Below, one piece after another: positions 14,191-48,873 of a stretch of DNA of 55,556 bases. Source of the DNA: a virus (taxonomy: Duplodnaviria; Heunggongvirae; Uroviricota; Caudoviricetes). Each line of letters starts with the position of its first letter. Within the stretch, counting starts at the first letter, position 1. The notes beneath the pieces were generated by a model. The model did no database searches and was not told where the DNA came from. It saw nothing but the letters and a program-made list of their open reading frames with translations. Position numbers and translations under genes: made by a program. The stretch is from the IMG/VR virus record IMGVR_UViG_3300023710_000192; one strand, 5' to 3'.

Positions 14191-17100
14191 CTAAAATCTA
14201 TTTACACTTAATCGACTACCTGAGCCATTAAGCTGATTGATTGTTACATCTTCTAAAGCCTGTCTAACACTACGATCTGTTTTAATACAGTTGATAATAT
14301 CAGTTGCATTACTACAGTTTTCAAGTGTAAAGTTGTACTCGGCATTAATCTGAGAGTTCGCAAGATTAGATAGATTACTATTCGGTATTGCAAGTGGTTT
14401 AAGAATACCATTGACTTGCGGAACAATATTCAACAAATCTTTGATAGCTGAAACATCTTCCGGTGCAACAAATCCTTCACCATTACGTACCCATGCTAAT
14501 CCATCTTCGCCAATCGGTGTTAACTTGCCAATGCCACCGTGAGAGAAGCCACCGACATTTTTGATATTACCTACTGCTTTATGTAAAGCAACAAGTTCAT
14601 CGTACAAACCTGCATTATCAGTATTCAATACCTTACGTAATGCGGTTAAACCGCTTTCTGTTAATACTTTCTTATTCTTTTTGAATAACTCCTGATTAAT
14701 TTTAGTCTTGTAATCAGTTGCTTTACTCTTTTTGCCAGCAGCATAATAATTACTGTTACCAAATATAGCTTCAACTTCAGACTTAATCTTTTGCGTTTCA
14801 CTTTTAGAAATAGAATCTTTTAAAGCTTGAGTTTGAGTATTTAATGCTGATAAGTCTCCCGTTCCTATAGGCGGTACGGTTTTATTTTTATCATCGGTAT
14901 TATCAGAGCCAGTTTGACCACCGTTTTCGCCATTTCCGTCATTTCCACCATTTCCGTCATTTCCACCATTGGTCTTATCGGTTTTGTCTGAATTATCAAA
15001 TGCCTGAATAATACTATCAAGTTTATTTTCTACATTGGTAAGTAATCCGTCTGGAACAGTTATTGCCATTTTGCCATCAACAACAGCACCACTCATAGCC
15101 TTAATACCAGTTTCAAGATGACCTAATGCATCAACGTAATTATACTTTTCGGCATATTCTGTAATTGTTGAATTAATACCATTGATGTTTTCGTTGGTTA
15201 TTGTAAGACTTCTTTCAAGTAACTTATCACGATCTTTCATTTCTTTCTGAAGGTCTTGATAATACTCGTCATACATCTTATCAAGCATTGACTCCATATC
15301 AGAGAAATACTTTTCACGTTCAAGGTCATCACGACTCTCATTAGCATCTTCTAATTGCTGACGTAATCTCTGAGTCTTCATACGACCAGCTTCTGAAGTA
15401 TCACCAACAGAAGCATTAAGTTGTTTCTGAATATTAGAAATATTCGTACTTGCATCCTTTATTTGCTTCTGGTAATCGTAGAGTGATTTTTCCTCGCTTA
15501 AAGATTGTTTCTTGAGATCGACAATCTTTTGCAAAGATTTTGCTTCGGCCTCATACTTTTGAATCATCATGTCAATAGCATTATTTTGAGCATTGGTAAG
15601 TTCAATAATATCACTATTGAGTTCCGATTCAAGTTCCATCATCTTATTATAAAGTTCTTCTTTAGAATGAATTATTCTACCTGCTATGTCTATACCGTCT
15701 TCACTTGAAAAATCATCCTTCATGTCATCAAATGCGTCTTTCATTTTAATAAGAACGGATAAATCTTTCTGCTGCTTTGCAACGGCTACATTCATAGCAG
15801 TAACATAAGTACCCATAGTAGCACGACCTTCACGAGTGAAAGCCCCAGTGTCTTCATCGAACTTGTCAAACTTATCCCAAGTTTGAGAAATTGTGTCCAT
15901 AGTACTTACTATTGCACTTAATTCATCTTTGACTAACTTATGCAAAGATTCAGTAACAGTTGTAATTTGAGTGCCTAATTCTGCAACAGACTTAGTACAT
16001 TCGTCAATAGATGCATTTACGTCGGATAATGCATTCTTTGCATCGTACCATTCGGCAGTACCTACCGGTATTGTAGCAAGTTGTTCTTCAAGCTCTGCCT
16101 TAGACTGTTGATATAATTTACGTTTTTCTTTTTCGTATTTTATCTGGTCTTTATACAATTTACGGTCAACAGTCATACCCTTTGCTTCGGATAATTCTGC
16201 TCTACGATTAATTGCATCTTCTTCGGCTTGTTGAAGTTCTACTTGTCGTTCATAGTGTAATTTAATATTATCGAATTTTTCTTTTTCGAGTTGTATTAAC
16301 TCTTTCTGACGTTCAGCTTCTAGTTGATCAATTTTAGTTTGGTCTTCTGTAAGAGCAGCAATCTTTTTCTCGTATTCATATTTTGTTTCAATATATTCTT
16401 TCTGTTGTTTAAGATAATCGTTACTCTTAAGATAATTGTCACTAATGTCTCCAAAGGCTTTAAGTCTGTTTATATTAGCTTCGGCATCATCAACATAAAG
16501 CTGATACTGTTCTTCTCTAAGTTGACGTACTTGTGTAGTTAATTCGTCAACTTGCTGTTTTGCTTCTTGGGATTTGTCATACCACTCTTTATACTTGTTG
16601 ATAGCTTCAGCAGTGGTTTGACCATATTCCTTGATAAGAGTTTTAATATCGCCATCAATCTTACCCTCTTGAATTTTCTTAATAAGACCACTTGTAAGAA
16701 TTTTTTCTTTCTTGGCAACTTTTTTACCCTTTTTATTTTTAACATAAACTACATTGCCTTTTTTGTCTTTAACTTTCCTAGTAGAAGTCTTGGCAACATT
16801 ATCAGCCTTCTTTTGGTACTTTTCGGCAGCTTTAGCATTATTATTTAATAACTTTGTAGTTTTAGTTATTTGTTGTTCAAGATTTGAAACTTTAGTGTCA
16901 ACAGTAAATAAGTTTTCAAGCTTAGCCCTTGTTTGATCAATAACTTTTTGTAAACGTTCAAGATTACGAGCAATCCAATCTATTTCGGTCTTGTTTGAGT
17001 CTTTAGAAGATTTGCTATTTCCTCCGCCGTTTCCGCCTGCTTTGCCAGATGTATTACCAGCAGTAGCGCCAATTTTTGCATCTTTCTTATTGCTATTAAC

Positions 17101-19304
17101 GGCGTTATCGTATGCTTTTTTTGCACCACGTTCCATGTTTTGAGTTGCTTCAGCATAACCACCCTTACCAGCATTAACACCAGCCGATTGTTTTGCCTTT
17201 GCTAATCTTGTAAGTGCAGTAACAGCATCATCGCTATATGACACTAATTGCGCCAATGCTAAACAATCAGCAGCAGTAGCAATTGATAAATTATTAACAT
17301 GTAATTTTTCTGCTGTAAGATTAAATAAACTACCAGAAGTTATGTTTGCTTGAGATGCTTCAGTTGCTAAAGCGGCAGCTTCTTGGCTAGTCATATTGGC
17401 CAAATCAATACCGGCTAATTTAGCTTGTACTTTCGAATCAGTACAATTATTCATTACATTTGTTAAGTCAGTTTCGGCTTTTTGTAAATCAAATTGCGTT
17501 AAAGCCAATCTTGATTCAACAACCTCGTCAGCATTTATTACACCGATCTTTTCTAATTCAGATTTAGTATATTCTGCATTGCTTTCAGTTAAATTTTGAA
17601 GCAATGTTCCATGATCAATATAAAAAGTCGCTAATTTATTAAGAGCATTTTGCTGTGCCTCAACATCGTTTGGCATTTCAGTAACAACTTTTCTAAAATC
17701 ATTAAGAGCTTTTTTAGCACCGGGCATTTTAGCCTCAGTGTCCTCAAGATTTTTCATCAATCCTTCAACACTGTCGGCTGAAACCGTTGTGCCTGAACTA
17801 AAATCACTTATAATATTACCAAAACCACTAAATGCATCTTTAAGTTCATTGAGTGAATCTGTTACATTAACGTCTGGCAGAGAAATAGTTAATGAATCTT
17901 CAACTTCATTTAGTCCTTTTTTAGCTAAACGTTGTAATTCCTTTACCCAAGACTCATAATTTCTACTAGACCTATTAGTAATACTATCGAATATATTATC
18001 AATATTTGCCAAAATACTTTCGGCTTGTTCGGGGGTTGTTTTTAAGAGATAATCAAGTACTAATTCTTTTTCATTACTGGTTAAATTTCCAAAACGTTCA
18101 TTATTATTTAAAGTATTATATATTTTAGAAATTGTATCAGCCATCGAATCATCGTCAACACTTGCCTTAATTTTAACATCTATGTACTCGCCAGATGTAT
18201 ATATTTGATGTTGGAGCCAGTCTATATCAGATTTAATTCGATTATAAAGCTCTTGTTGACTTTTGGTAAGATTATCATAACCAACCTCATCCATAGTTGC
18301 CATCATATCTTCAAGGTCTAATATTCTATCAGCAAATAATGACATTTGATTATCATATTCGGTTATAAATACACCATTTTTTTGTTGTAATTCCTCTAAT
18401 GACCATTTCAAATTATCAAATGTATCAAAACCTTCTTCTTTAATAGCAGACATAACAGCTTCTTTGGTTTCATCATTAGCGGTTTCATAAGCATATACCA
18501 AATCTTGCCATTCTTGGATTTGTTTTTCATTTTCAGCTATTGCTTTATTAACATCTTGCAAATTATCGAACCTAGTAGAATTATTTTCAAATCCATCGTA
18601 TCCACCAACAATTGATATTGGGCCGCCAATATCAATGTCGCTATTTGCATTTTCGTAATCCGATTCGACGGTGCGGACTGCTTTTCTTGCATCAATTTCA
18701 GCTTCTTTTTGTTTTAATCTGATTCGTTCTTCTAATTGTTTATTTTCAGCTTGTAATCTATCTAATTCATCTTGTTCAGTAAGAGTAAGGGTTCCTTTGC
18801 TTTTAAGCTCGTTAATTCTATCTTTAGTTATTTCAAGTTCAGAATTTAAAGACTCAACCTCATCTTTAGTTTTTTGATATTCTTCGGCAGTCTCTTTAAT
18901 CTCGTCTCTAGCTATTTCAGCACGATGAATATAATTATCAATTGCTTCAATGGCTTTAGTAGCAAGAAATGAAACAAGTGTAACTATTGCAGCATTTAAT
19001 AATCCGATTCCAATATTTTTTACTACATTTCCTAATTGTGAAAAACCGGATGCTGCAGTTTTAGCATAAGTATCAGCTAAACTTTCACCTTCTTTTAATG
19101 CCAAATTACCAGATTGATAATCTTTTGCTAATTGTATTGCTTTATCATCTATAACACCTAATTCTTTTGCTAATTCTTCGACATTTGAGGTTTTATCAGA
19201 TTGTATTTGTTCAAATAATGAACCGGCATTGGAATCAAGTGGTGTTTTTTTAAATGTTCCCAATAGAGGAGACGACCATCCATTTTCTTTATTGTAATTT
19301 ACAA
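14191..19304 (-). CDS. Tape measure protein, exon 2 (spliced product 3356 aa)
   Basis: Long helical coiled-coil with C-terminal GGFSHGG..GEDGLAWVRNGE motif. The ORF-track start has no SD. Joins exon 1 in frame as GGG T|TT GTA AAT. Confidence 0.85.
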
Positions 19305-19321
19305 CACATAAAACATACATA

Positions 19322-19350
19322 TTGCTTCCAACAATTATGCATGATATAAT
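19322..19350 (+). promoter_or_regulatory. sigmaA-type promoter driving the antisense intron cargo
   Basis: TTGCTT-17 bp-TATAAT with extended -10 TG. SD AGGAGGT precedes ATG 19373. Confidence 0.75.
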
Positions 19351-19372
19351 TAAAAAAATAGGAGGTGGTTAT

Positions 19373-19831
19373 ATGGAAACAATGAAAATGTGCATAAAAT
19401 GTGCAAAAGCCTATGAATCTCAAGTGCTTCCTAATACTACTTTTAATAGAGGAATTTTAGATTTTTATAACGAAGGACATATCAAAAATAATTGTCCTAT
19501 TTGTAATGGTAATTTATTTGAATTAGCACTCGACAAAAATGAACTCGAAATAGTTAAAAAAACATCAATGTCAATAGATTTTATTTTAGCAATGAATGAC
19601 TTAAAAAATAGAGATATAATTGAATTTAATCTCAAAATGTCTCAATTCAAACAAAATATTTTAACACAACAGAATAATAATGTAAATTGCCCTAAATGCC
19701 CAACTTGTGGTTCTACTAATGTAAGAAAAATATCAAGTACAAAACGTTGGTTAAGTACCGGCATTTTTGGTTTAGCAAGTTCAAATGTTGGTAAAAATAT
19801 GGAGTGTTTATCATGTCATAGTAAATGGTAA
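19373..19831 (+). CDS. Intron-encoded antisense Zn-ribbon protein (152 aa), function unknown
   Basis: Four CxxC pairs (CIKC, CPIC, CPTC, CLSC) and the segment WLSTGIFGLASS. No HNH, GIY-YIG or LAGLIDADG motif. The only well-supported plus-strand gene in the morphogenesis region. Confidence 0.85.
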   Translation: METMKMCIKCAKAYESQVLPNTTFNRGILDFYNEGHIKNNCPICNGNLFELALDKNELEIVKKTSMSIDFILAMNDLKNRDIIEFNLKMSQFKQNILTQQNNNVNCPKCPTCGSTNVRKISSTKRWLSTGIFGLASSNVGKNMECLSCHSKW

Positions 19832-20253
19832 AATAATAATCATTAGTAATTATTTGATGTTTTAATTTAATACCATTGTGTTTTTGGAAGTCACCAATGG
19901 TTATAGCTTTTTCGAATTAAAGCACTCAACCTTAATTCAGTGGACTCTACCTTCGTGTATAAATTATTATCCACGCCCACTTGGGAGCCTCTGGGGGCAA
20001 CACTTACTATAAAGCAGTACGTTTCCCTGCTGATTAGAACACTATTCTACATTACGAGTCAAATAGGTCTTTCCAGTCCTTGTACGAGTCTTACGAACAT
20101 CGTAAACTACCCAGCTACGGATAGTTATATCAGTGGTACATATATATAATATGTTTGTTTTTACTTGTGCGCCCTACTGTTAAAACAGGTCTTTGTGTTT
20201 TATCTATGGGTTTTAGCCATAGCACGGGTATACGCACCTGAGCTTGTAAATTA

Positions 20254-23200
20254 ACCCAGCACCTGTTGCACCTTTAAAACCAGCAAATCCAACCAATGCA
20301 GTATTAATTAATCCAAAATTATCAATAATACTTGTTGTTGCCGGTAATATTTTGTTTAATATATCAAGTAAAGTCTTAAGACTATCACTATTAATTGTTA
20401 CATTAGCAAGTTCTTGTAAATGATTCTTTGATTGAGTTATTTTGCCGTCTACAGATTCCAAATATTTATCCAACTCAACCTGCGCCGAACCTTCACTTTT
20501 CTGAGAAGATTTATATACTTCTTCTAATAAATCTGGAGCATTTAAAATTGAAGCAGCTATATTTGCACGGTTTTTACCTGCTATAAATTCAACTAATGCA
20601 TTAGCACGATTAGTTCCGTATTTTTTATCTTCTTCCTGTATTTCTTTATATATTTTTGAAATATCTAATAATATTTCATATGTATTTCTAAGATTGCCAT
20701 TTTCATCTAATACATCAACACCTTTACCCATATTGGAAGCAACAGCGGTAAAGTTTTTAATAGTCTGTTGAGTTTTTGAGTTTGTTTGAACTACAAAATC
20801 TTCTACGTCTTCACCTAAATCTTCAAGTTGTGCTTTTGCTTCTTCCGTTGATGCTATTCTTAAAGAAATAGTTCGAACACCCATAGAAGCCTTAGAAATA
20901 TCTTGTACTTGAGAGTTTGCGGCAGTAAGTAATGCGACAGCCTCATCAATATCGTTACCTTGAGTCTGTAATACGGCTGCTGTATTTTGAAGACCTTGTG
21001 CTAATTTATCCGTAGAAATACTGAAATTGTTACCAATATTGTTAAGTTTATCAACAATTTCAATTTTATCAAGATTTTTATACGCCTGACTTGCAGACAC
21101 TAACGCTTCAGTTGCTTCATTTATATTTTCAAATTCGGATACATTAAGAAGTATATTGGAAACCTTTGCAGATTCGGATGCATCTTCCATTGCCTCTCCT
21201 AGTCTTAACCAATCGGCCGTAGAATTTTGAATGGTAAGAGCTGTGGCACCAACAGAATCTCCAACTTCGAAAGTAGTAGAAGCGTAATCTTTTAAAGAGG
21301 AAACGGACTCGTCGCTAACTTTACGCATTTCAGTAAGTGCAGTATCGTATTCACGAACTGTATCAGCGGCCTCTCTTACATATCTAATTATGTCATAGAA
21401 ACTTGCAAATGTTGATACATATGCAGCTAAAGACTGAAACCTTTGCTTAAGAGTATCACCAAAAGATTTACCTAATTTATCAGCGTCTGCGACTCTAGCT
21501 TTAAGACCGCTAATTTTATTTTGTAAATTGTCTAATGCCTCTGAAGTTAAATTGCTACTATTCTTTAACTCAGACATAATAGATCTAATTTCTTCACCGA
21601 ATTGTCTTTCGGCTTTACTATTTTGATTTACCCATGTCGCAAAACGAGCATACATATCTTTTTGACGAGTAAGATTTGTTTGTGTTTGTTTCGCAACATT
21701 TTGTTCTGCTTTAGCTTGTTTCTCCGTAGCTTTTGTAACAGCAGTGATATTCCTTAAAGATTCTTGAGCTGCTTTTTTGTCTACGTTACCCTTGTTTTCA
21801 ATGGTTTCTATTTCTTTGTTGAGAGCATTAATACGTTCAGTAGAACCTTTAATTGCTGCAGCGTTGCCTGAGACAATTGCAGAATTTAAGTTTCCGGCTT
21901 CCGTAGATCTCTTTGCTAATAAAGATTCATATTCACGTTGAGCCTGTGCAGCTTCTTTAGTGGCTTTTGCTTCAGCATTTTTCTGTGCAGTATATTCTTC
22001 AGAAGTTTTAATATTTCTATCGAGAAGATCACCATTAGCACCAACCCATGCATAACCATTCTTACCTACTAAACGATAAGATGCTTTATAAGTATCATCA
22101 GAGTCTTTTCGTATTCTTTGATATACATCAACAACGCCGCCAAGTTGTTCTTTTAGATCATCGGATATTTTTATCATATCCTCGAATTGAGAAATGTCTA
22201 TTTTATTCTCCGAAACAACTTCGCCTTCTTCTTTAATGGCTTCTGCAGCTTTTTCTATGCTTTCAGCCGTATCAAAGCCGGATTCTGCAACCTTTTGGTT
22301 AGCAATTACAAATTGCTCTTTCTGTACTGCAGATTTCTCAGCAACTTTACCTTCTTCTTCAATAGCTGCAGTAGCATTCTCTATGTTATCAACATTTGAA
22401 TATGTATCTGTGGCTTGATTGAGTGAGTCATATCCTTTTTTAAGATATTCCTCTAAAATTTCTTCCCCACCATATGCCTTTAACATATTTTTATAATCAC
22501 TAGATGCATCAGGTGGATTATTCACAAAATCATATAAGAGTCGAATAGCTTCGGCTGTACCATTGGCCTCATCTATTACATATCCAAAATGTTCCCTTAA
22601 TTCATCAAGAAAATTTAATGCATCAGAGCCAGAATTTCTTAATTGAAGTTTTTTCTGAACATGATTCCACTCGTCTTCTCCAATGTTAGCCCTATCATCG
22701 CTAGAAATTTTTATATGCCCTTTTGTAATAAATTTCTTTATTTCTTCCCATTCGGCATATTCTCCACCAAGTTGTTCCCTGACTCCCTTAGAATTTGACA
22801 AGGCACCAATTACGCCGTTAATATTCATGTCATTGCCAGATGACATTAATTGGAAAAGTTCTTTAATTTCTTCTTTTAAATTTCTAACTTTTTCCCCGGT
22901 GCCAAGAAATTCATTGGCAATTTGTTGAGCAACTTCTTCTGAAACTTGATCAAGACGTTTTTCATCAGTAATTAAAGTTTCAACGGCTTCTCGTGTTTTA
23001 TCCACGGAAGTTTCAACATCTTTATCATATGTTTTAACAGGTTCTTCATTGACTATTTTAACACTGGCAATAATATTATCGAATTTGTCAATGATTTCAT
23101 CTAACTGTTGAGAAAAATGACTAAACGATTCTCCAAATAAATCCTTCTGAGATATTTCTGTTAAAAGAGTGCATATTTTTTCAAGTTGGCCTATAACTTC

Positions 23201-25210
23201 AGATAAATCAACGCTATCCATTTCGTGCATCTTTTGAATAAATTCTTTTTCGGATTCATTCGCAGAGTCAAGTTTTTTATTTAAGTAAGCATTTGTGCTA
23301 CTTGGCGTACTTAATTTATCTACCATTTGAGATAATTCAGATGTAGATCTTACTTGTCGCTTTATATTCTTGATATTATTTTTAATATCATTTTTCTCAT
23401 CTTTATTAGATGTATTTTTTAATTTATCCTGCGCATAATCTAAATCTTTATTAAGTAACTCAACTTCTTCTCTTAATTCGCTTCTTACTTCTTTAAACCT
23501 AACTAAAAATTCACGTATGCGATTTATCTGCTCCATAGGATTATTTATAGATGCAACAGCGTCTTTTGAGAATAAAGAAAATAAATCGTCCGAAGAACTA
23601 CCAAGACCAGATGATTTATTTAATACATTACCCATAGTAGAAAATAATTTTTCTTCATCGCCAAAGGCTTTTACAATCTTATTGTAAGATTGCATTAGCT
23701 TATCACGCTCACTGGATATCAATAAATCAGAAGCACTACCAAAATTTTCACCCTGTTTAATCTCAATATTGTAAATTCCAGTTCCTATTTTTTCACGCAT
23801 TTTATCAAGTTTGTAAAACAATTTATCCAAACTTTCCATCAAATTAGAGAAACTAGATTTCTCATCAACCGTGCCTAAAGTAGTAGCAATATTTTTAAGT
23901 TGTTGCTCAATCCTTTCAAGAACATTTAAAAAAGAGGTTAATTCTTCAGAATTAAACCCCTTTGACATTTTTTCTGATAAACCTTCTCCACCAGTACCGC
24001 CAGTAGATTTGAGTTTATTTTTTAGTTCGTCAATTTCTTTTTCTAATCTTTCAACCTCTGCAACTTTTTGATCCCAACTCCAAGAGTCAATAGAATAATA
24101 TATCTCTGTATCTAATTCATAAATTCTATCTTTAAGAGCTACAATTTTTATTCGGGCTTCTTCATAATCTTTAGCAAGTTCATCATATGCCTCATTAGTA
24201 GGGGCGTTATCTATAATATTCTGTAATCGTAATATTTCATCATATAACTCATTAACCTTTTGTTGTGTCTTATCTATTTCAGAAACATCACCAATTACGT
24301 TTTCAGTAATAGAACCTTGTTTTAAATTGGTAAATTGATCTTTTGGTATATATATTTTTTTACTTAAAGATTCAAATATATCTTCGAGATCTCTAACTTC
24401 AACACCCATTTCTGAGAGTGTTTGAATCATATCACCAGCACTCTTTTGAAATCTTGCCCACTGTTCGTCATCGACTTCTAAGAATTTATTATCAGCAGAC
24501 ATATCTTTGATTTGCTGCAATTGCGTTTTAGTTTCTTCAAGAATCTTGTCTCTTGTGTTCATTAAGGCTTCTTGTTTTTCACGTTCCGCTTGTTTAACAG
24601 CATTAGCGGTTTCTTTTGCTATCTGCGTTTGTTGTTTATATACTTTATATTGTTCGTTTGCCCAATTTTCATTGGCCTCATATTTGACATCAAAAGATCC
24701 TTTTTTTACGTTTGATAAAGCTGCATTAATATTCTTCTGAAATAAAGCTTGCAAATAATCTTGCTTAAAAACATCGGATTTATTAAATATAGCATCAAAC
24801 ATATTTTGATACTCAGAAGTTATTTCTTGACCATATTTTTCAGAGTATGTTTTAATAGTAGCAAATGCTTTTAAAAATTCTTTTTCAAAACCACTTATGT
24901 TTTCTGTACTAATTTTTGAAATGTCAAAACTTTTTAATGAATCATCAAGTATTTTTTTTGCTTCACCAATCTGTTTTTTTAGTGCTTTGGTGTTCCATAA
25001 TTCAATATTAGTTCTTGATGTGTTTTTTGCTTCATTTCTTATTTCTTCAAGAGTTTTAGCAATCGGTTTTAATTCTTTATCATCCGCCTTTGGAGATACT
25101 CTTGTACTATTTATTTCATTTTGTTTTTCCAATATATTATTTAATTGACTTATTAATCCATCTAATGAAGACGTATCGACACCGCCACTACCACTGATTC
25201 CTTTAGGCAT
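20254..25210 (-). CDS. Tape measure protein, exon 1
   Basis: TP901-like TMP core (VREYDTALTEMRKVS...WLRLG...GLQNTAAVL...GVRTISLRI). The ORF runs 13 codons into the intron before stopping. SD AGGAGG. Confidence 0.88.
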
Positions 25211-32704: not shown

Positions 32705-33273
32705 GTATGAATTTCCTTATTAATAAACTTGGAAACACCGTCAGAATTTTTAATAACATTATTATCTGTAATCTGCTGAAATATAATAGTTCTACAATTA
32801 TACTTGCTATCAACTACAGACTCTTCATCACTGATTACCATAATCTTACGACCAAAATAATTTGTGAAATTAAATTGGTGTTTTATTAAAGCACCTAATA
32901 AGTCATGTCTTGAAATACCTGCATCTTTCTCTTTAATATTTTTGTTCTCACAAAGTATATTAAAAGTGATATATAGATATTTAACAAGTTTATTGTCACG
33001 GTTAAGATTACGATACCCAACAGTAAAACAAATGAAATTATCACTCTTATATTGAGTAGGAGAGATGAGATAATACGGGAATATATTAACCCCTATATAC
33101 TCATCAGGTTCGGAATTTAACTCTTCTAATTCTTTGTTATTTAATACATGAATAATATCTTTATTTTTTATTAACAATTCAGATATTTTTTCTTTTATTT
33201 TAATATTGTCGTCCTCGACAACATATTTATATTGTTTGAGGCGGTCACGGTCTTCACTAGTCCATTTTTCCAT
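32701..33273 (-). CDS. Tail completion/terminator-like protein
   Basis: SD AGGAGGT. Function inferred from position between head-tail and tail genes. Confidence 0.5.
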   Translation of the reverse strand: MEKWTSEDRDRLKQYKYVVEDDNIKIKEKISELLIKNKDIIHVLNNKELEELNSEPDEYIGVNIFPYYLISPTQYKSDNFICFTVGYRNLNRDNKLVKYLYITFNILCENKNIKEKDAGISRHDLLGALIKHQFNFTNYFGRKIMVISDEESVVDSKYNCRTIIFQQITDNNVIKNSDGVSKFINKEIHT

Positions 33274-33288
33274 TAAACACACCTCCTA

Positions 33289-33929
33289 TTATAGACTCAC
33301 AATTTCAAACTTAAGTTCTGCAACAATACTATCCTTAGTATTACGAATTATAAGTATCTTACCAAGATAATCCTCGTCTCCAAGGAATTTGATTTTGATC
33401 TTGTTTTCGTCATCAGTTGTTAATGTCTGAATTAATTCTCCTACATTAACATCATCAATCCAATACGACCATTCTCCCGGCATTTGATTTGTAATTATTT
33501 CGTCGGAATTATAGTATGTAATAGTTATTGTTTTATAAGAACCATTTACTTTGAGTTGCGGCTTTGCACCTGAATAGGTTATTATTGCATAGTCCTCGGC
33601 TTCTGCCGGATTAATTGGTTCGTCTTGTTGAACATTACCTTCTTTCTTAAGGTCTGCCCATGCAGCAATCCAATTACCATCTTTATCAACTTCAATTACA
33701 TCAGTGTCAGGATTAAACAAATCTTGCACACATGTATAGTGTATAACTCCTAATGGATTTATACCTTCAACCTTACTGATTTTCCATGTAATTGGAACAA
33801 CTAAAGGTGGCGATATAATTAGTCGTTGATTATAGTATACTGTTTTAGAAATATCGTTGTACGGAAGAATAAACTTACGTTGATTCTCTATACTGGATAT
33901 TTTGTAATCCGTCCAAATTCCAGAATTAT
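33289..33929 (-). CDS. Head-tail joining/structural protein, exon 2 (spliced product 393 aa)
   Basis: Frame is open from 33929 (AT AAT TCT GGA ATT TGG...) and runs through the track ORF 33289-33729. The splice gives ...GRSQNS-Y-NSGIWTDYK... Confidence 0.8.
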
Positions 33930-35210
33930 CAAATATGTTACTTTATCAGTTCGTTAAGCTGATAAAGAATTATTTATATTATAGTAATTACAATAACATT
34001 TATATTTTCTTTGTAAAAACAGGTTAGCATCTTTATATATCCAGTCTAAAAAAGTTTTAACAACATTTCTTCCACTTAATGTAAATACTTTTGTGACTCC
34101 GTTATGACACGAAGCATCATAAATACTAGCATTTATATTAAGTGTATTTTTACAAGTATCCTTTAATTCATTACAAAAGTCTTCGGTGGCAGTGATAGTA
34201 ATATTTATATGGGTATTATTTTCATTTATATAATAATTAGAAATACTACCATCTCCATCAAAAACACCACGTACATAATGTGATATTAAATCTTTATCTA
34301 ACCAAGTAGGAAAACCTATTGTAAGACTCTTATTAGGTATAATTCCTTTGTCATTGAGTTGATTACACATGTGAGTACTAAACATTAATAAACGATATTG
34401 ATTTTTATATGTATACCCAAAATCATGTTTGTTTGAATAATCAATGAATTCCAAAGGTTTTTCACTCCCAATTTCTAGTCTCATTTTTTCAAGTATGTCT
34501 TTATCATCTTCTTGTAATGAAATAGAAATTGTTGCTTTATCTAAATTATTACATCCATCGGAATGTAAAAAACCCAAAATATAGGCTTTATTAGGAGTGT
34601 CAATAATATCAAAATAATGCTCATTTAATTTATATTTCCTAACAAAACGTTTTTGATCTACTTCGACTTCCATTTTGTGTAAAGCTTTTAATATTATTTT
34701 ATGACTACAACCATATTTTTTCCCAATTTTTACCGATGATTCTCCGTTAAGATATGAATATTTAATATCAATTAACTGTTCTTGTGAAAATATTATTTTG
34801 TTATATACTTCTTTACCATTTTTATACATTGTTATTTCCTCCTAAAATAAGCAATAAAAAAGACCATAATCGTTATATAGGAGGTATAACGAAACGGGAG
34901 CTACCCGCTGTCTGGTCTGTTTATTAATATAATATAAATAATTTTTCTCTACCTTTCAGTAGAAGTTCAGAGTACATCAACACCATATCCATAAAGACTT
35001 AGGTGGTTCCCGTTAAGGTCACTTGACCGTATACTCGTTGAACACATTCCTATTCGGAACTTCGCTGCGTCGATTATCCAATCCAATAACTTTTTAAAGC
35101 ATTCACGTTTGAGTTTGTTTCATCTCTACGTTGTAGCATATTGGCTCTAAGGAATTTCCCGCAATTAGAGAACTTTCGACATATGGTTTCCCATATGAAG
35201 CGCATAATCT
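33930..35210 (-). ncRNA. Group I intron (1281 nt) with LAGLIDADG homing endonuclease
   Basis: AAUUGCGGGAA (35156-66), UUCAACGAGUA, P7 GAGUA (35032-36) / UACUC (34970-74), GAAA-capped P9. 5' site after U35211; P10 GAUUAU/AUAAUU; terminal G at 33930. Confidence 0.88.
33954..34829 (-). CDS. LAGLIDADG homing endonuclease (two motifs)
   Basis: AYILGFLHSDG and YVRGVFDGDGSI; SD AGGAGG. Confidence 0.9.
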   Translation of the reverse strand: MYKNGKEVYNKIIFSQEQLIDIKYSYLNGESSVKIGKKYGCSHKIILKALHKMEVEVDQKRFVRKYKLNEHYFDIIDTPNKAYILGFLHSDGCNNLDKATISISLQEDDKDILEKMRLEIGSEKPLEFIDYSNKHDFGYTYKNQYRLLMFSTHMCNQLNDKGIIPNKSLTIGFPTWLDKDLISHYVRGVFDGDGSISNYYINENNTHINITITATEDFCNELKDTCKNTLNINASIYDASCHNGVTKVFTLSGRNVVKTFLDWIYKDANLFLQRKYKCYCNYYNINNSLSA

Positions 35211-35751
35211 ACGAATTCTGGCTTCTTCCAACACCCCAACAATGATATTTCTTACCGTTATATATCCATTTAAAGTCGTAATCACAGAATAATATTGACC
35301 AATTCGGGAAATCTCCGTTGTCGGTATTAGCACCAGCAACAATCATCCACCTACGATAGATACCCTTTTCATCTGGCAAATCGAGATAAAGACCAATCGG
35401 GAATTCACTCCCACACTTCTTTTCAAAAAGTTCATTGTAGTATGGTACATTACACCTATAGCTTGGTTTAAACATTATTCTGTAATCTACATTATCTTTA
35501 TCCAAAGTTTGATATGTATTGATTATAAACTTTACATCAACCGGTATCTTAGTTTTAGACTTTTCTGGGTTAAGACCAATATTCTTATCTGGTTCATCAT
35601 CATATTCATAAGAGTAGAGATAACCAACATAAGATGTCGGATCGTCATACCATGTATATTCAACAATATCTTGTGATTCATGAGTATGAACTTTACCGAC
35701 AGTATTACCCTTACTAAGCATTAGTTTTTGATAATCTGAAAAACTAGGCAT
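35211..35751 (-). CDS. Head-tail joining/structural protein, exon 1
   Basis: ORF ends at a TAG whose T is the last exon base (541 nt, phase 1), matching the phase of exon 2. Confidence 0.8.
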
Positions 35752-35754
35752 ATA

Positions 35755-36090
35755 TTACACCTCGCTTTCTGGTATACTTAAAACCTTTGCTCCTGCATCT
35801 AAGATAAATTTGCGATATGTCGCAAAATCAAACTCGGTTTGTATTAATTTTAAGGCTTCTTCTAACAAACAAAGCACAGTAACAATTTGTTGTGGTTTAC
35901 CTAATAACTCATTAAAACCTGAGATCTTATACATTAAACCTACATGCGCTTCGTATAAATCCACTTCTGGAAATCTTGTTTTGGTTTCTAAATCTTCTGC
36001 AACAAGAAGTAAGAAAAATATTCTCTTGCGAATCAATTCTTTTGTTTCTGAAATTTGTTTTGCGTCAAATGAACCATATTTATGCTTCAC
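35755..36090 (-). CDS. Hypothetical head-tail region protein (111 aa)
   Basis: Co-oriented, overlapping start/stop with its neighbour. Confidence 0.55.
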   Translation of the reverse strand: MKHKYGSFDAKQISETKELIRKRIFFLLLVAEDLETKTRFPEVDLYEAHVGLMYKISGFNELLGKPQQIVTVLCLLEEALKLIQTEFDFATYRKFILDAGAKVLSIPESEV

Positions 36091-48801: not shown

Positions 48802-48873
48802 TAGCGGAGACAGGAATTGAACCTGCTACCTTCGGGGCATGAACCCGTTATGCATCCGTTACACTTCTCCGCA
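48802..48873 (-). tRNA. tRNA-Met(CAT), initiator-like
   Basis: Cloverleaf TGCGGAG...CGGG-TTCATGC-CCCG...GCAGG-TTCAATT-CCTGT-CTCCGCTA. 1:72 mismatch and three G-C pairs in the anticodon stem; no CCA. Confidence 0.85.

What the first reader, a model, noticed from the sequence alone, without database searches (positions are those of the whole stretch)
14191..25210. The two tape-measure ORFs are one gene split by a group I intron with precisely predictable splice sites
Seen: exon 1 ends GCUGGGU (20254), which pairs with GCUCAG to give the canonical U.G. The first ten intron bases UAAUUUACAA are the exact reverse complement of UUGUAAAUUA, which follows a G at 19305 (P10). Joining gives GGG T|TT GTA AAT = ...GATGAG-F-VNYNKENGW..., and 4957+5114 = 10071 nt, a 3356-aa TMP. 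P5, P6, P7 and P8 and a Q-like motif are present. Known: phage group I introns are best known from nucleotide-metabolism, polymerase, lysin and terminase genes. Since TMP length sets tail length, splicing would be essential here.
Basis: partly seen in the sequence, partly recalled or inferred. Interest (0 to 1): 0.8.

Follow-up and report, generated by a model that had tools for sequence, protein, structure and literature searches.

The report
Self-splicing intron splits phage tail ruler gene
The two big tail "tape-measure" reading frames of this uncultured gut phage are one 3356-codon gene interrupted by a 949-base group I intron. RNA libraries contain the exact predicted spliced junction. 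This kind of split is already known in other phages, but this intron family is new and always carries a small backward-facing zinc-finger gene.

Summary
The observation and the interpretation both hold.

- **One gene:** ORF 25210-20213 and ORF 19320-14191 (minus strand) match successive parts of one tape-measure family. They align end to end with uninterrupted 3600-3770-aa TMPs of three relatives.
- **Group I core:** the 949 nt between them (20253-19305) has P1 with U.G, a 10-bp P10, omega-G, P3-P9, and P7 with a bulged A.
- **A family:** I found at least 13 homologous introns at the same TMP site in other metagenomic phages. Compensatory changes support P1, P2, P3, P5, P6, P7, P8, P9 and P10.
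- **RNA evidence:** contigs of three metatranscriptome runs join 19304 to 20254, skipping exactly 949 nt. A 79-kb contig of a run the index guesses to be DNA runs unbroken through the intron.
- **What is unusual:** Rfam's Intron_gpI model misses the family. It has two extra hairpins between P3 and P4. It carries a conserved antisense zinc-ribbon gene instead of a homing endonuclease.
- **Precedent:** group I introns in TMP genes are published for Bacillus cereus prophages and Vibrio phage ICP1.

Verdict: a correct prediction, a new variant of a known kind, and of moderate interest.

The parts
20254..25210 (-). TMP exon 1 (4957 nt, 1652 codons plus 1 nt). Contains the PhageMin_Tail domain.
   Evidence: PF10145 at aa 1315-1529. 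phrog_4211 positions 374-941 of 2625. 29% identity to Sundance TMP aa 680-1072.
19305..20253 (-). Group I intron, 949 nt, phase 1, ending in omega-G at 19305.
   Evidence: Core defined. Contigs of three RNA libraries skip exactly these 949 nt.
20238..20259 (-). P1: exon CUGGGU (20259-20254) pairs with IGS GCUCAG (20243-20238), with U.G at the splice site. The P1 loop (20253-20244) is the P10 guide.
   Evidence: Invariant in 10 members. The divergent member L053 has CUGGAU/GUUCAG, a G-C to A-U change.
19295..19304 (-). P10 3' strand: the first 10 nt of exon 2, complementary to intron nt 1-10.
   Evidence: A 6-12 bp P10 in the same register, each after a G and each giving an open frame, in 10 of 12 members with different sequences.
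20167..20237 (-). P2 three-way domain (P2, P2a, P2b).
   Evidence: Compensatory changes in all three stems.
20132..20136 (-). P3 5' strand CCACU. It pairs with AGUGG at 19977-19981, which makes the pseudoknot with P7.
   Evidence: A-U becomes G-C in L040/L046 and in L053.
20083..20124 (-). Two extra hairpins between P3 and P4. hpA (20107-20124) has loop GUAGCU. hpB (20083-20104) has a GNRA-type loop.
   Evidence: Both stems covary strongly. The hpA loop covaries with AAGCU at 19905-19909, switching to GUGACU/AAGUC in L039 and L053.
19995..20076 (-). P4-P5-P6 domain. P4 is CUGG/UCAG, J4/5 is AAA, J5/4 is AA, followed by P5/P5a and P6/P6a.
   Evidence: P5, P5a and P6 have compensatory changes; P4 is invariant.
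19942..19991 (-). P7 (G, bulged A, GGCUC / GAGUC-C) enclosing P3', P8 (CGUG/CACG) and J8/7 AAGGUA.
   Evidence: Four covarying P7 variants, including the pair flanking the bulged A. P8 covaries.
19872..19938 (-). P9 hairpin (19914-19938), conserved AAAAAGCU (19905-19912), and P9.1 (19872-19901).
   Evidence: P9 has compensatory changes at 6 pairs.
19373..19831 (+). Antisense 152-aa zinc-ribbon ORF inside the intron 3' region, with SD 19361-19365 and an extended -10 TGATATAAT at 19342-19350.
   Evidence: 48 homologs. Seven homologs looked up; in five the gene lies between two TMP pieces, and in the other two beside a large minus-strand ORF at a contig end or next to further plus-strand genes. 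No Pfam or PHROG family.
14191..19304 (-). TMP exon 2 (5114 nt including the stop).
   Evidence: phrog_4211 positions 2225-2608 of 2625. Aligns to the C-terminal halves of the intronless TMPs in L004, L005 and L021.

Best explanation
The tape-measure gene (25210-14191, minus strand) is one gene interrupted by a 949-nt group I intron (20253-19305). In the late transcript the intron folds into a group I core. It pairs its guide GCUCAG with the exon end CUGGGU (P1, U.G wobble) and is cut after U 20254. It then uses its first ten bases to hold the start of exon 2 (a 10-bp P10), and ligates the exons after the terminal G 19305. The mRNA then encodes a 3356-aa TMP. Shown here: gene continuity, the conserved and covarying RNA structure, and the exact spliced joint in RNA libraries. 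Inferred: autocatalysis with guanosine, that the spliced product is the one built into tails, and a tail of roughly 0.5 um (about 1.5 A per TMP residue, from established phage lambda work). The intron belongs to a family fixed at this TMP site in related gut and rumen phages. The family carries an antisense zinc-ribbon gene that probably has its own promoter, and no homing endonuclease.
For: (1) phrog_4211 matches ORF1 at positions 374-941 and ORF2 at 2225-2608 of one TMP profile.
(2) L004, L005 and L021 have single TMP ORFs of 3768, 3624 and 3627 aa that align over 2575-2828 residues with exon 1 + exon 2. L021 reads VK-F-ITY where the window's spliced product reads AG-F-VNY.
(3) At least 13 homologous introns lie at the same site, exon ...GCTGGGT|TA...GGCTCAG.
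(4) RNAalifold on 13 sequences gives 88 pairs, 55 of them with compensatory changes, and recovers P1, P2, P4, P5, P6, P7 and P9. P3 and P8 covary. P1 changes G-C to A-U in L053.
(5) P10 of 6-12 bp follows a G in 10 of 12 members, and guide and exon co-vary.
(6) Spliced products of five members are open and homologous across the joint, G-[LF]-[FV]-N-Y-x-K. The window has +1 nt in exon 1 and -1 nt in exon 2 relative to them.
(7) Contigs from three metatranscriptome runs join 19303/4 to 20253/4 and skip 949 nt. In two of those runs nothing covers 19305-19367.
(8) The Logan contig L027 (79 kb, listed for 4 samples, from a run the index guesses to be DNA) runs through the intron without a break.
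Against: Rfam RF00028 gives no hit to this intron or to four relatives even at E<=10. The single-sequence fold is not exceptional (z = -1.8). The RNA evidence is assembled contigs, not reads. It shows neither strand nor chemistry, and the libraries may contain DNA, so the joined form could in principle be an intron-less DNA allele. I could not lay the DNA runs of the same samples. In run X5 an unspliced or DNA form (depth 30) coexists with the joined form (depth 19). ORF2 has its own in-frame ATG at 19320 with a weak GGAAG upstream, and in L031 a good SD plus TTG, so separate translation of the second half is not excluded. Two hairpins between P3 and P4 are not part of the textbook group I core.
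Confidence: 0.9

Rival explanations
1. The joined sequence in the RNA libraries is DNA, or a transcript, of an intron-less allele of the same phage. In intron-bearing genomes the two halves would then be made as separate proteins, with ORF2 starting at ATG 19320.
For: The tool warns that RNA libraries can hold DNA. X5 has 10-45 kb contigs at even depth. ORF2 has an in-frame ATG 16 nt upstream of the joint. L031 has AAGGAG plus an in-frame TTG right at the joint.
Against: In X6 and X7 the exon 2 contig goes straight into exon 1 while 19305-19367 has no cover, and in X9 exon 2 has no cover although the intron does. Both patterns are unlike DNA. The 79-kb Logan contig (kind guessed as DNA) has no bubble at the site. 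No intron-less DNA form is in IMG/VR, though the phage itself is not there either. Conservation and covariation of a complete ribozyme core, P1 and P10 across diverged phages would be unexplained. The +1/-1 indels only make sense if the exons are joined.
Confidence: 0.05
2. The insert is a non-ribozyme mobile cassette (a moron or small transposon with 10-bp inverted ends) carrying the zinc-ribbon gene, and the TMP is permanently split.
For: TAATTTACAA and TTGTAAATTA form an inverted repeat at the two ends. The cargo gene appears to have its own promoter. There is no Rfam hit.
Against: One repeat arm lies outside the excised segment, as expected for P10 and not for terminal inverted repeats. 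About 430 nt of non-coding sequence carries covarying helices with group I topology. The exact 949-nt skip appears in RNA contigs.
Confidence: 0.02
3. It is a group I intron that no longer splices on its own and needs a protein helper. The conserved antisense zinc-ribbon protein or a host factor would act as a maturase.
For: The zinc-ribbon gene accompanies the intron in nearly all members. P4 is only 4 bp. The 3' splice site lies about 560 nt from P9.1.
Against: The protein has no recognisable RNA-binding or maturase family. The very long P10 and the extra tertiary pairing could themselves compensate.
Confidence: 0.12

Closest known systems
Group I introns TMP-IVS1, IVS2 and IVS3 in tape-measure genes of Bacillus cereus-group prophages (Tourasse and Kolsto 2008, PMC2504315)
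   Same: Group I introns interrupt the TMP gene of temperate Firmicutes siphophages. P1 and P10 adapt to the target site. Several lack a functional homing endonuclease. Different phages share one site.
   Different: Those are IA1 or IA2 introns related to known phage introns. This family is not found by Rfam RF00028, shows no P7.1/P7.2, has two hairpins between P3 and P4, and carries a conserved antisense zinc-ribbon gene. The host gene here is almost three times longer.
Split tape-measure gene of Vibrio phage ICP1, with intronic HNH homing endonuclease and spliced transcripts (Barth et al. 2023, PMC10448857)
   Same: TMP in two fragments, rejoined at the RNA level and shown by RNA sequencing. 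That paper calls TMP a frequently interrupted gene.
   Different: The ICP1 insert carries a sense-oriented homing endonuclease. Here the ORF is antisense and has no nuclease signature.
Group I introns in capsid and tail genes of Cluster J mycobacteriophages (Pope et al. 2013, PMC3706429)
   Same: Introns in late virion genes that are efficiently spliced during late expression. The tail-gene introns have no endonuclease.
   Different: Different host phylum, different genes (minor tail, not TMP), and no antisense cargo.
Canonical LAGLIDADG-bearing group I intron in the TMP of relative L036 (Rfam RF00028, E 2e-4)
   Same: Same gene and same phage group. It lies about 500 nt upstream of the family intron.
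   Different: It is recognised by the Rfam model, and its endonuclease ORF is on the sense strand in a loop of the core.

Membership tests
Group I intron | P1 helix between the 5' exon end and an internal guide, with a U.G wobble at the cleavage site | tested here: met
   CUGGGU/GCUCAG with U20254.G20243. Kept in 10 members. CUGGAU/GUUCAG in L053, a compensatory change.
Group I intron | Intron ends in a G (omega-G), and P10 pairs the guide with the start of the 3' exon | tested here: met
   G19305. 10-bp P10 in the window. 6-12 bp in 10 of 12 members with co-varying sequences, always after a G.
Group I intron | P3-P7 pseudoknot in the order P3, P4-P6, P7, P3', P8, P7' | tested here: met
   P3 CCACU/AGUGG becomes CCGCU/AGCGG in L040 and L046, and CGCU/AGCG in L053. 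P7 has four compensatory variants. P8 covaries.
Group I intron | Guanosine-binding P7 with a bulged nucleotide next to a G-C pair, and a conserved J8/7 | tested here: met
   G/C - bulged A - GGCUC pairs with GAGUC - C/G. The pair next to the bulge switches G-C to C-G in L039 and L043. J8/7 AAGGUA is invariant apart from AAUGUA in the divergent member L053. The likeness to the consensus R and S elements is from my memory of the literature.
Group I intron | P4-P6 domain with A-rich J4/5 and J5/4 | tested here: met
   P4 CUGG/UCAG (invariant, only 4 bp), J4/5 AAA, J5/4 AA. P5, P5a and P6 covary.
Group I intron | Short (about 3 nt) J3/4 joining P3 directly to P4 | tested here: not met
   Two covarying hairpins (20083-20124) lie between P3 and P4 in all members. 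This is a peripheral deviation; the core pairings are kept.
Group I intron | Match to the curated covariance model Rfam RF00028 | tested here: not met
   No hit at E<=10 in the window or in L030, L036, L041, L043 and L046 for this family. The same search does find another intron in L036.
Group I intron | Precise excision and exon ligation at the RNA level | tested here: met
   Contigs of three metatranscriptome runs skip exactly 949 nt. The caveat is that these are contigs, and DNA carry-over is not formally excluded.
Group I intron | Self-splicing started by exogenous guanosine | not testable with these tools
   Needs in vitro transcription and GTP labelling.
Mobile (homing) group I intron | Encodes a homing endonuclease (LAGLIDADG, GIY-YIG, HNH, His-Cys box, PD-(D/E)xK) | tested here: not met
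   The only ORF is an antisense zinc-ribbon protein with no Pfam or PHROG nuclease family.
Tape-measure protein (PhageMin_Tail / phrog_4211) | Single long, largely helical protein with a PF10145 domain, encoded between the tail chaperone and distal tail genes | tested here: met
   PF10145 E 8e-14. phrog_4211 matches both halves colinearly. Tail fibre genes lie downstream. Intronless homologs are single ORFs.

The most novel reading that the evidence does not exclude
This intron family would be more than a parasite of the TMP gene. It would be a carrier that lets accessory genes with their own promoters sit inside an essential late gene without harming it. Here the accessory gene is a conserved antisense zinc-ribbon gene that may be expressed when the tail genes are silent. 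In IMG/VR relatives the same TMP junction region holds inserts with ToxN, PemK/MazF-like, GmrSD-like or Bro/ANT genes. The extra P3-P4 hairpins, the hpA-loop/J9 pairing and the 10-12-bp P10 would be adaptations that keep splicing efficient despite a large 3' cargo.
Probability: 0.3. Interest if true: 0.7.

Novelty: new variant of a known kind. Interest (0 to 1): 0.5.

Why it matters
It corrects the annotation: there is one 3356-aa tape measure, among the longest known, implying a tail of about half a micrometre, and not two orphan ORFs. It shows that a sequence-only prediction of splice sites can be exact. It adds a well-supported intron family, with more than a dozen members and covariation in every helix, that the standard Rfam model misses. 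Similar introns are therefore probably under-counted in metagenomic phages, where their host genes get mis-called as split. The constant antisense non-nuclease passenger, and the defence-type genes at the same spot in relatives, make the idea that introns serve as safe harbours for accessory genes directly testable.

Tried and rejected
- **Rfam:** gathering and E<=10 scans gave no Intron_gpI hit for this family, none in eight IMG/VR relatives, none in L019 3700-10300 and none in window 33200-35800.
- **Searches against phage records:** megablast and blastn of the locus or intron core found nothing. tblastn of the exon 2 N-terminus found nothing.
- **Other look-ups:** The search for related loci with the exon 2 N-terminus in IMG/VR found no relative. 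No whole genome is held for this window.
- **Single-sequence fold:** MFE z = -1.8, not informative.
- **Motif scans:** the R+S motif pattern in IMG/VR gave 0, and the P+Q pattern in genome contigs gave 0. A regex for the S motif in relatives' inserts gave no convincing match.
- **Intron-less DNA alleles in IMG/VR:** 0 matches for both patterns. This is uninformative for the window's phage, which is not in that collection.
- **Other family copies:** nhmmer with the family profile found none elsewhere in the window or in L003-L026.
- **Zinc-ribbon ORF:** Pfam, PHROGs and the ESM Atlas gave only generic zinc-ribbon neighbours.
- **3' splice site of L040 and L046:** not located.
- **Promoter scan:** the consensus scan does not list the antisense promoter because its -35 has only 3 of 6 matches. 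The extended -10 was read by eye.
- **My own first guess:** a P4 pairing of GCUGG/UCAGC was wrong. That GCU lies in the hpA loop.
- **Not done:** no covariance model was built, because a core of about 250 positions exceeds the calibration limit. No structure string was sent to the count of structure pairs, so the P3 and P8 counts come from my own script.
Full report
**Observation**

On the minus strand, ORF 25210-20213 (1665 aa) and ORF 19320-14191 (1709 aa) are separated by about 0.9 kb. That gap holds one plus-strand ORF.
- Exon 1 ends GCTGGGT at 20254.
- The next ten bases are TAATTTACAA, followed by GCTCAG.
- G 19305 is followed by TTGTAAATTA.
- 4957 + 5114 nt gives a 3356-aa product reading ...GATGAG-F-VNYNKENGW.

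Among all in-frame, G-preceded candidate sites downstream in the window, this one gives a 10-bp P10. The next best give 8 and 7 bp.

**One gene**

Exon 1 carries the PhageMin_Tail domain. The PHROG tape-measure profile phrog_4211 matches exon 1 at positions 374-941 and exon 2 at 2225-2608 of 2625, which is colinear. The 2528-aa TMP of Brevibacillus phage Sundance aligns in the same order.

IMG/VR holds 24 relatives with 48-63% identity in the conserved domain. Three of them (L004, L005, L021) have one uninterrupted ORF of 3768, 3624 and 3627 codons. These align over about 2600-2800 residues with exon 1 + exon 2. At the junction L021 reads VK-F-ITY where the spliced window product reads AG-F-VNY.

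**The intervening sequence is a group I intron of a family that Rfam misses**

Rfam RF00028 gives no hit, even at E<=10. I therefore looked for relatives through the intron's plus-strand ORF.
- The ORF has 48 homologs.
- I looked up seven of them. In five the gene lies between two TMP pieces, with a PhageMin_Tail-bearing or TMP-sized ORF on the far side.
- In the other two it lies beside a large minus-strand ORF, at a contig end in one case and next to further plus-strand genes in the other.

The flanking non-coding DNA aligns with the window's intron. A pattern built from two invariant blocks found ten more loci in metagenomes and IMG/VR. A profile search found a more divergent member (L052-54). 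All have the exon end GCTGGGT (CTGGAT in L053), followed by TA, a variable stretch, and GGCTCAG.

RNAalifold on 13 sequences predicts 88 pairs, 55 of them with compensatory changes. It recovers P1, a three-way P2, P4, P5/P5a, P6/P6a, P7 and P9. The pseudoknotted helices also covary:

| Helix | Window form | Variant form | Where |
|---|---|---|---|
| P3 | CCACU/AGUGG | CCGCU/AGCGG | L040, L046 |
| P3 | CCACU/AGUGG | CGCU/AGCG | L053 |
| P7 | (G)A-GGCUC/GAGUC(C) | GGUCA/UGAUC | L031, L036 |
| P7 | (G)A-GGCUC/GAGUC(C) | (C)A-GGCUC/GAGUC(G) | L039 |
| P7 | (G)A-GGCUC/GAGUC(C) | GGCUU/AAGUC | L043 |
| P8 | CGUG/CACG | CUUG/CAAG, AGUG/CACU | L038, L035 |
| P1 | CUGGGU/GCUCAG | CUGGAU/GUUCAG | L053 |

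The bulged A beside a G-C pair in P7, the A-rich J4/5 and J5/4, and the J8/7 AAGGUA (invariant except AAUGUA in L053) are the usual catalytic-core features. The comparison with the consensus is from my own knowledge of the literature.

P10 is the most telling helix. In 10 of 12 members the bases next to the guide are complementary to the first 6-12 bases after a G that lies just upstream of the second TMP piece. The sequences differ between members:

| Member | Guide | Start of exon 2 |
|---|---|---|
| window | UAAUUUACAA | UUGUAAAUUA |
| L038 | UAAUUAAAUAG | CUAUUUAAUUA |
| L035 | UAAUCAAAUAG | CUAUUUGAUU |
| L039 | ..UCCAAAUAG | CUGUUUGGA |

Splicing at these sites gives open, homologous peptides (G-L-F-N-Y-S-K-D-Q-G and the like) in five members. 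The window has one extra base in exon 1 and one base fewer in exon 2 than the others. Its frame is therefore restored only if the exons are joined exactly there.

**RNA evidence**

Ten of the twenty runs that hold this stretch, or part of it, are faecal metatranscriptomes. I laid four of them.
- Three (X5, X6, X7) contain a contig that joins 19303/19304 to 20253/20254 and skips 949 nt. The one-base ambiguity arises because both flanking bases are the same letter.
- In X6 and X7 the exon 2 contig runs straight into exon 1, and nothing covers 19305-19367.
- In X9 the intron is covered but the adjacent exon 2 is not. This uneven cover is what RNA would give and genomic DNA would not.
- In X5 an unspliced or DNA form (depth 30) and the joined form (depth 19) add up to the exon depth.
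- A 79-kb Logan contig, listed for four samples and from a run whose kind the index only guesses as DNA, passes through the intron without a break.

Caveats: these are contigs, not reads. They show neither strand nor chemistry. The three runs may come from one campaign. I could not lay DNA runs from the same samples.

**Unusual features**

1. Two covarying hairpins lie between P3 and P4 (20083-20124). The first has the loop GUAGCU, which switches to GUGACU together with a change of the conserved AAGCU after P9 to AAGUC, in L039 and L053. This argues for a tertiary pairing. The second has a GNRA-type loop. I could not check whether such a P3-P4 insertion has been described.
2. No P7.1/P7.2 is seen.
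3. P10 is very long.
4. The intron has no homing endonuclease. Instead there is a conserved antisense 152-aa protein. It has a variable N-terminal CxxC...CxxC, a conserved helical middle and a conserved C-terminal zinc ribbon. It has no recognisable family.
5. That ORF has a strong SD and an extended -10 (TGATATAAT, 19342-19350). RNA contigs of three runs begin at 19368 or 19383. This is a weak hint of its own transcript.

**Comparison with what is known**

Group I introns in TMP genes are published for B. cereus-group prophages, at three sites, of subgroups IA1 and IA2, several without a functional endonuclease (PMC2504315). ICP1's TMP is split by an intronic HNH gene with spliced transcripts, and TMP is called a frequently interrupted gene (PMC10448857). 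Cluster J mycobacteriophages splice introns in capsid and tail genes (PMC3706429). The kind is therefore known. The family, its peripheral architecture and its antisense passenger are new, as far as these searches show.

**Verdict**

The result is a new variant of a known kind, of moderate interest.

Noticed in passing
L006-L023 (IMG/VR relatives), e.g. L019:6606-10422 and L010:6681-10051: Near the TMP position of the window's intron, these relatives carry 1-3.4 kb inserts with sense-strand genes for ToxN (E 1e-34), PemK/MazF-like toxin, GmrSD_N or Bro-N/ANT. No Rfam intron hit was found there, so how the TMP is rejoined is unknown.
   Followed up: partly
L006-L025, e.g. L010:3757-6000, L019:3757-6000 and L024:6628-7903: A second, precise interruption of the TMP inside the PhageMin_Tail region, at about aa 1440 of window exon 1. 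It is 1.3-2.2 kb and holds a 524-, 347- or 311-aa ORF with weak CapR, treble-clef zinc finger or DUF723 matches. The frames before and after differ in some loci, so it is not an intein.
   Followed up: partly
L036:1925-2959 (minus strand): A canonical group I intron with a LAGLIDADG ORF (Rfam RF00028, two halves, E 2e-4 each) lies about 500 nt upstream of the family intron in the same TMP gene. These two introns are almost back to back.
   Followed up: partly
L003:5866-7233: The closest IMG/VR TMP relative (57% identity) has in-frame stop codons under table 11. Only one ORF of 200 aa or more appears on that strand of a 13-kb locus. This could mean a reassigned stop codon.
   Followed up: no
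window 19342-19373 (+) and 19368-20720: An extended -10 (TGATATAAT), an SD and an ATG of the antisense zinc-ribbon ORF. RNA-library contigs start at 19368 (X6, X9) or 19383 (X7). In X9 one contig runs on to 20720, antisense to TMP exon 1, while exon 2 next door is uncovered.
   Followed up: partly
L041:340-700 (+) and L052-L054:3442-3984 (+): Some family members carry other or additional cargo. L041 has a sense-strand ORF with its own SD straight after P9.1. L052-54 have a 180-aa ORF behind the zinc-ribbon gene.
   Followed up: no
window 48802-48873 (-): A tRNA gene, the only Rfam gathering-level hit in the window (45.5 bits).
   Followed up: no
window 33200-35800: The region that another note calls a second group I intron with a LAGLIDADG gene also gives no Rfam hit at E<=1. 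It has no similarity to the TMP intron family.
   Followed up: partly
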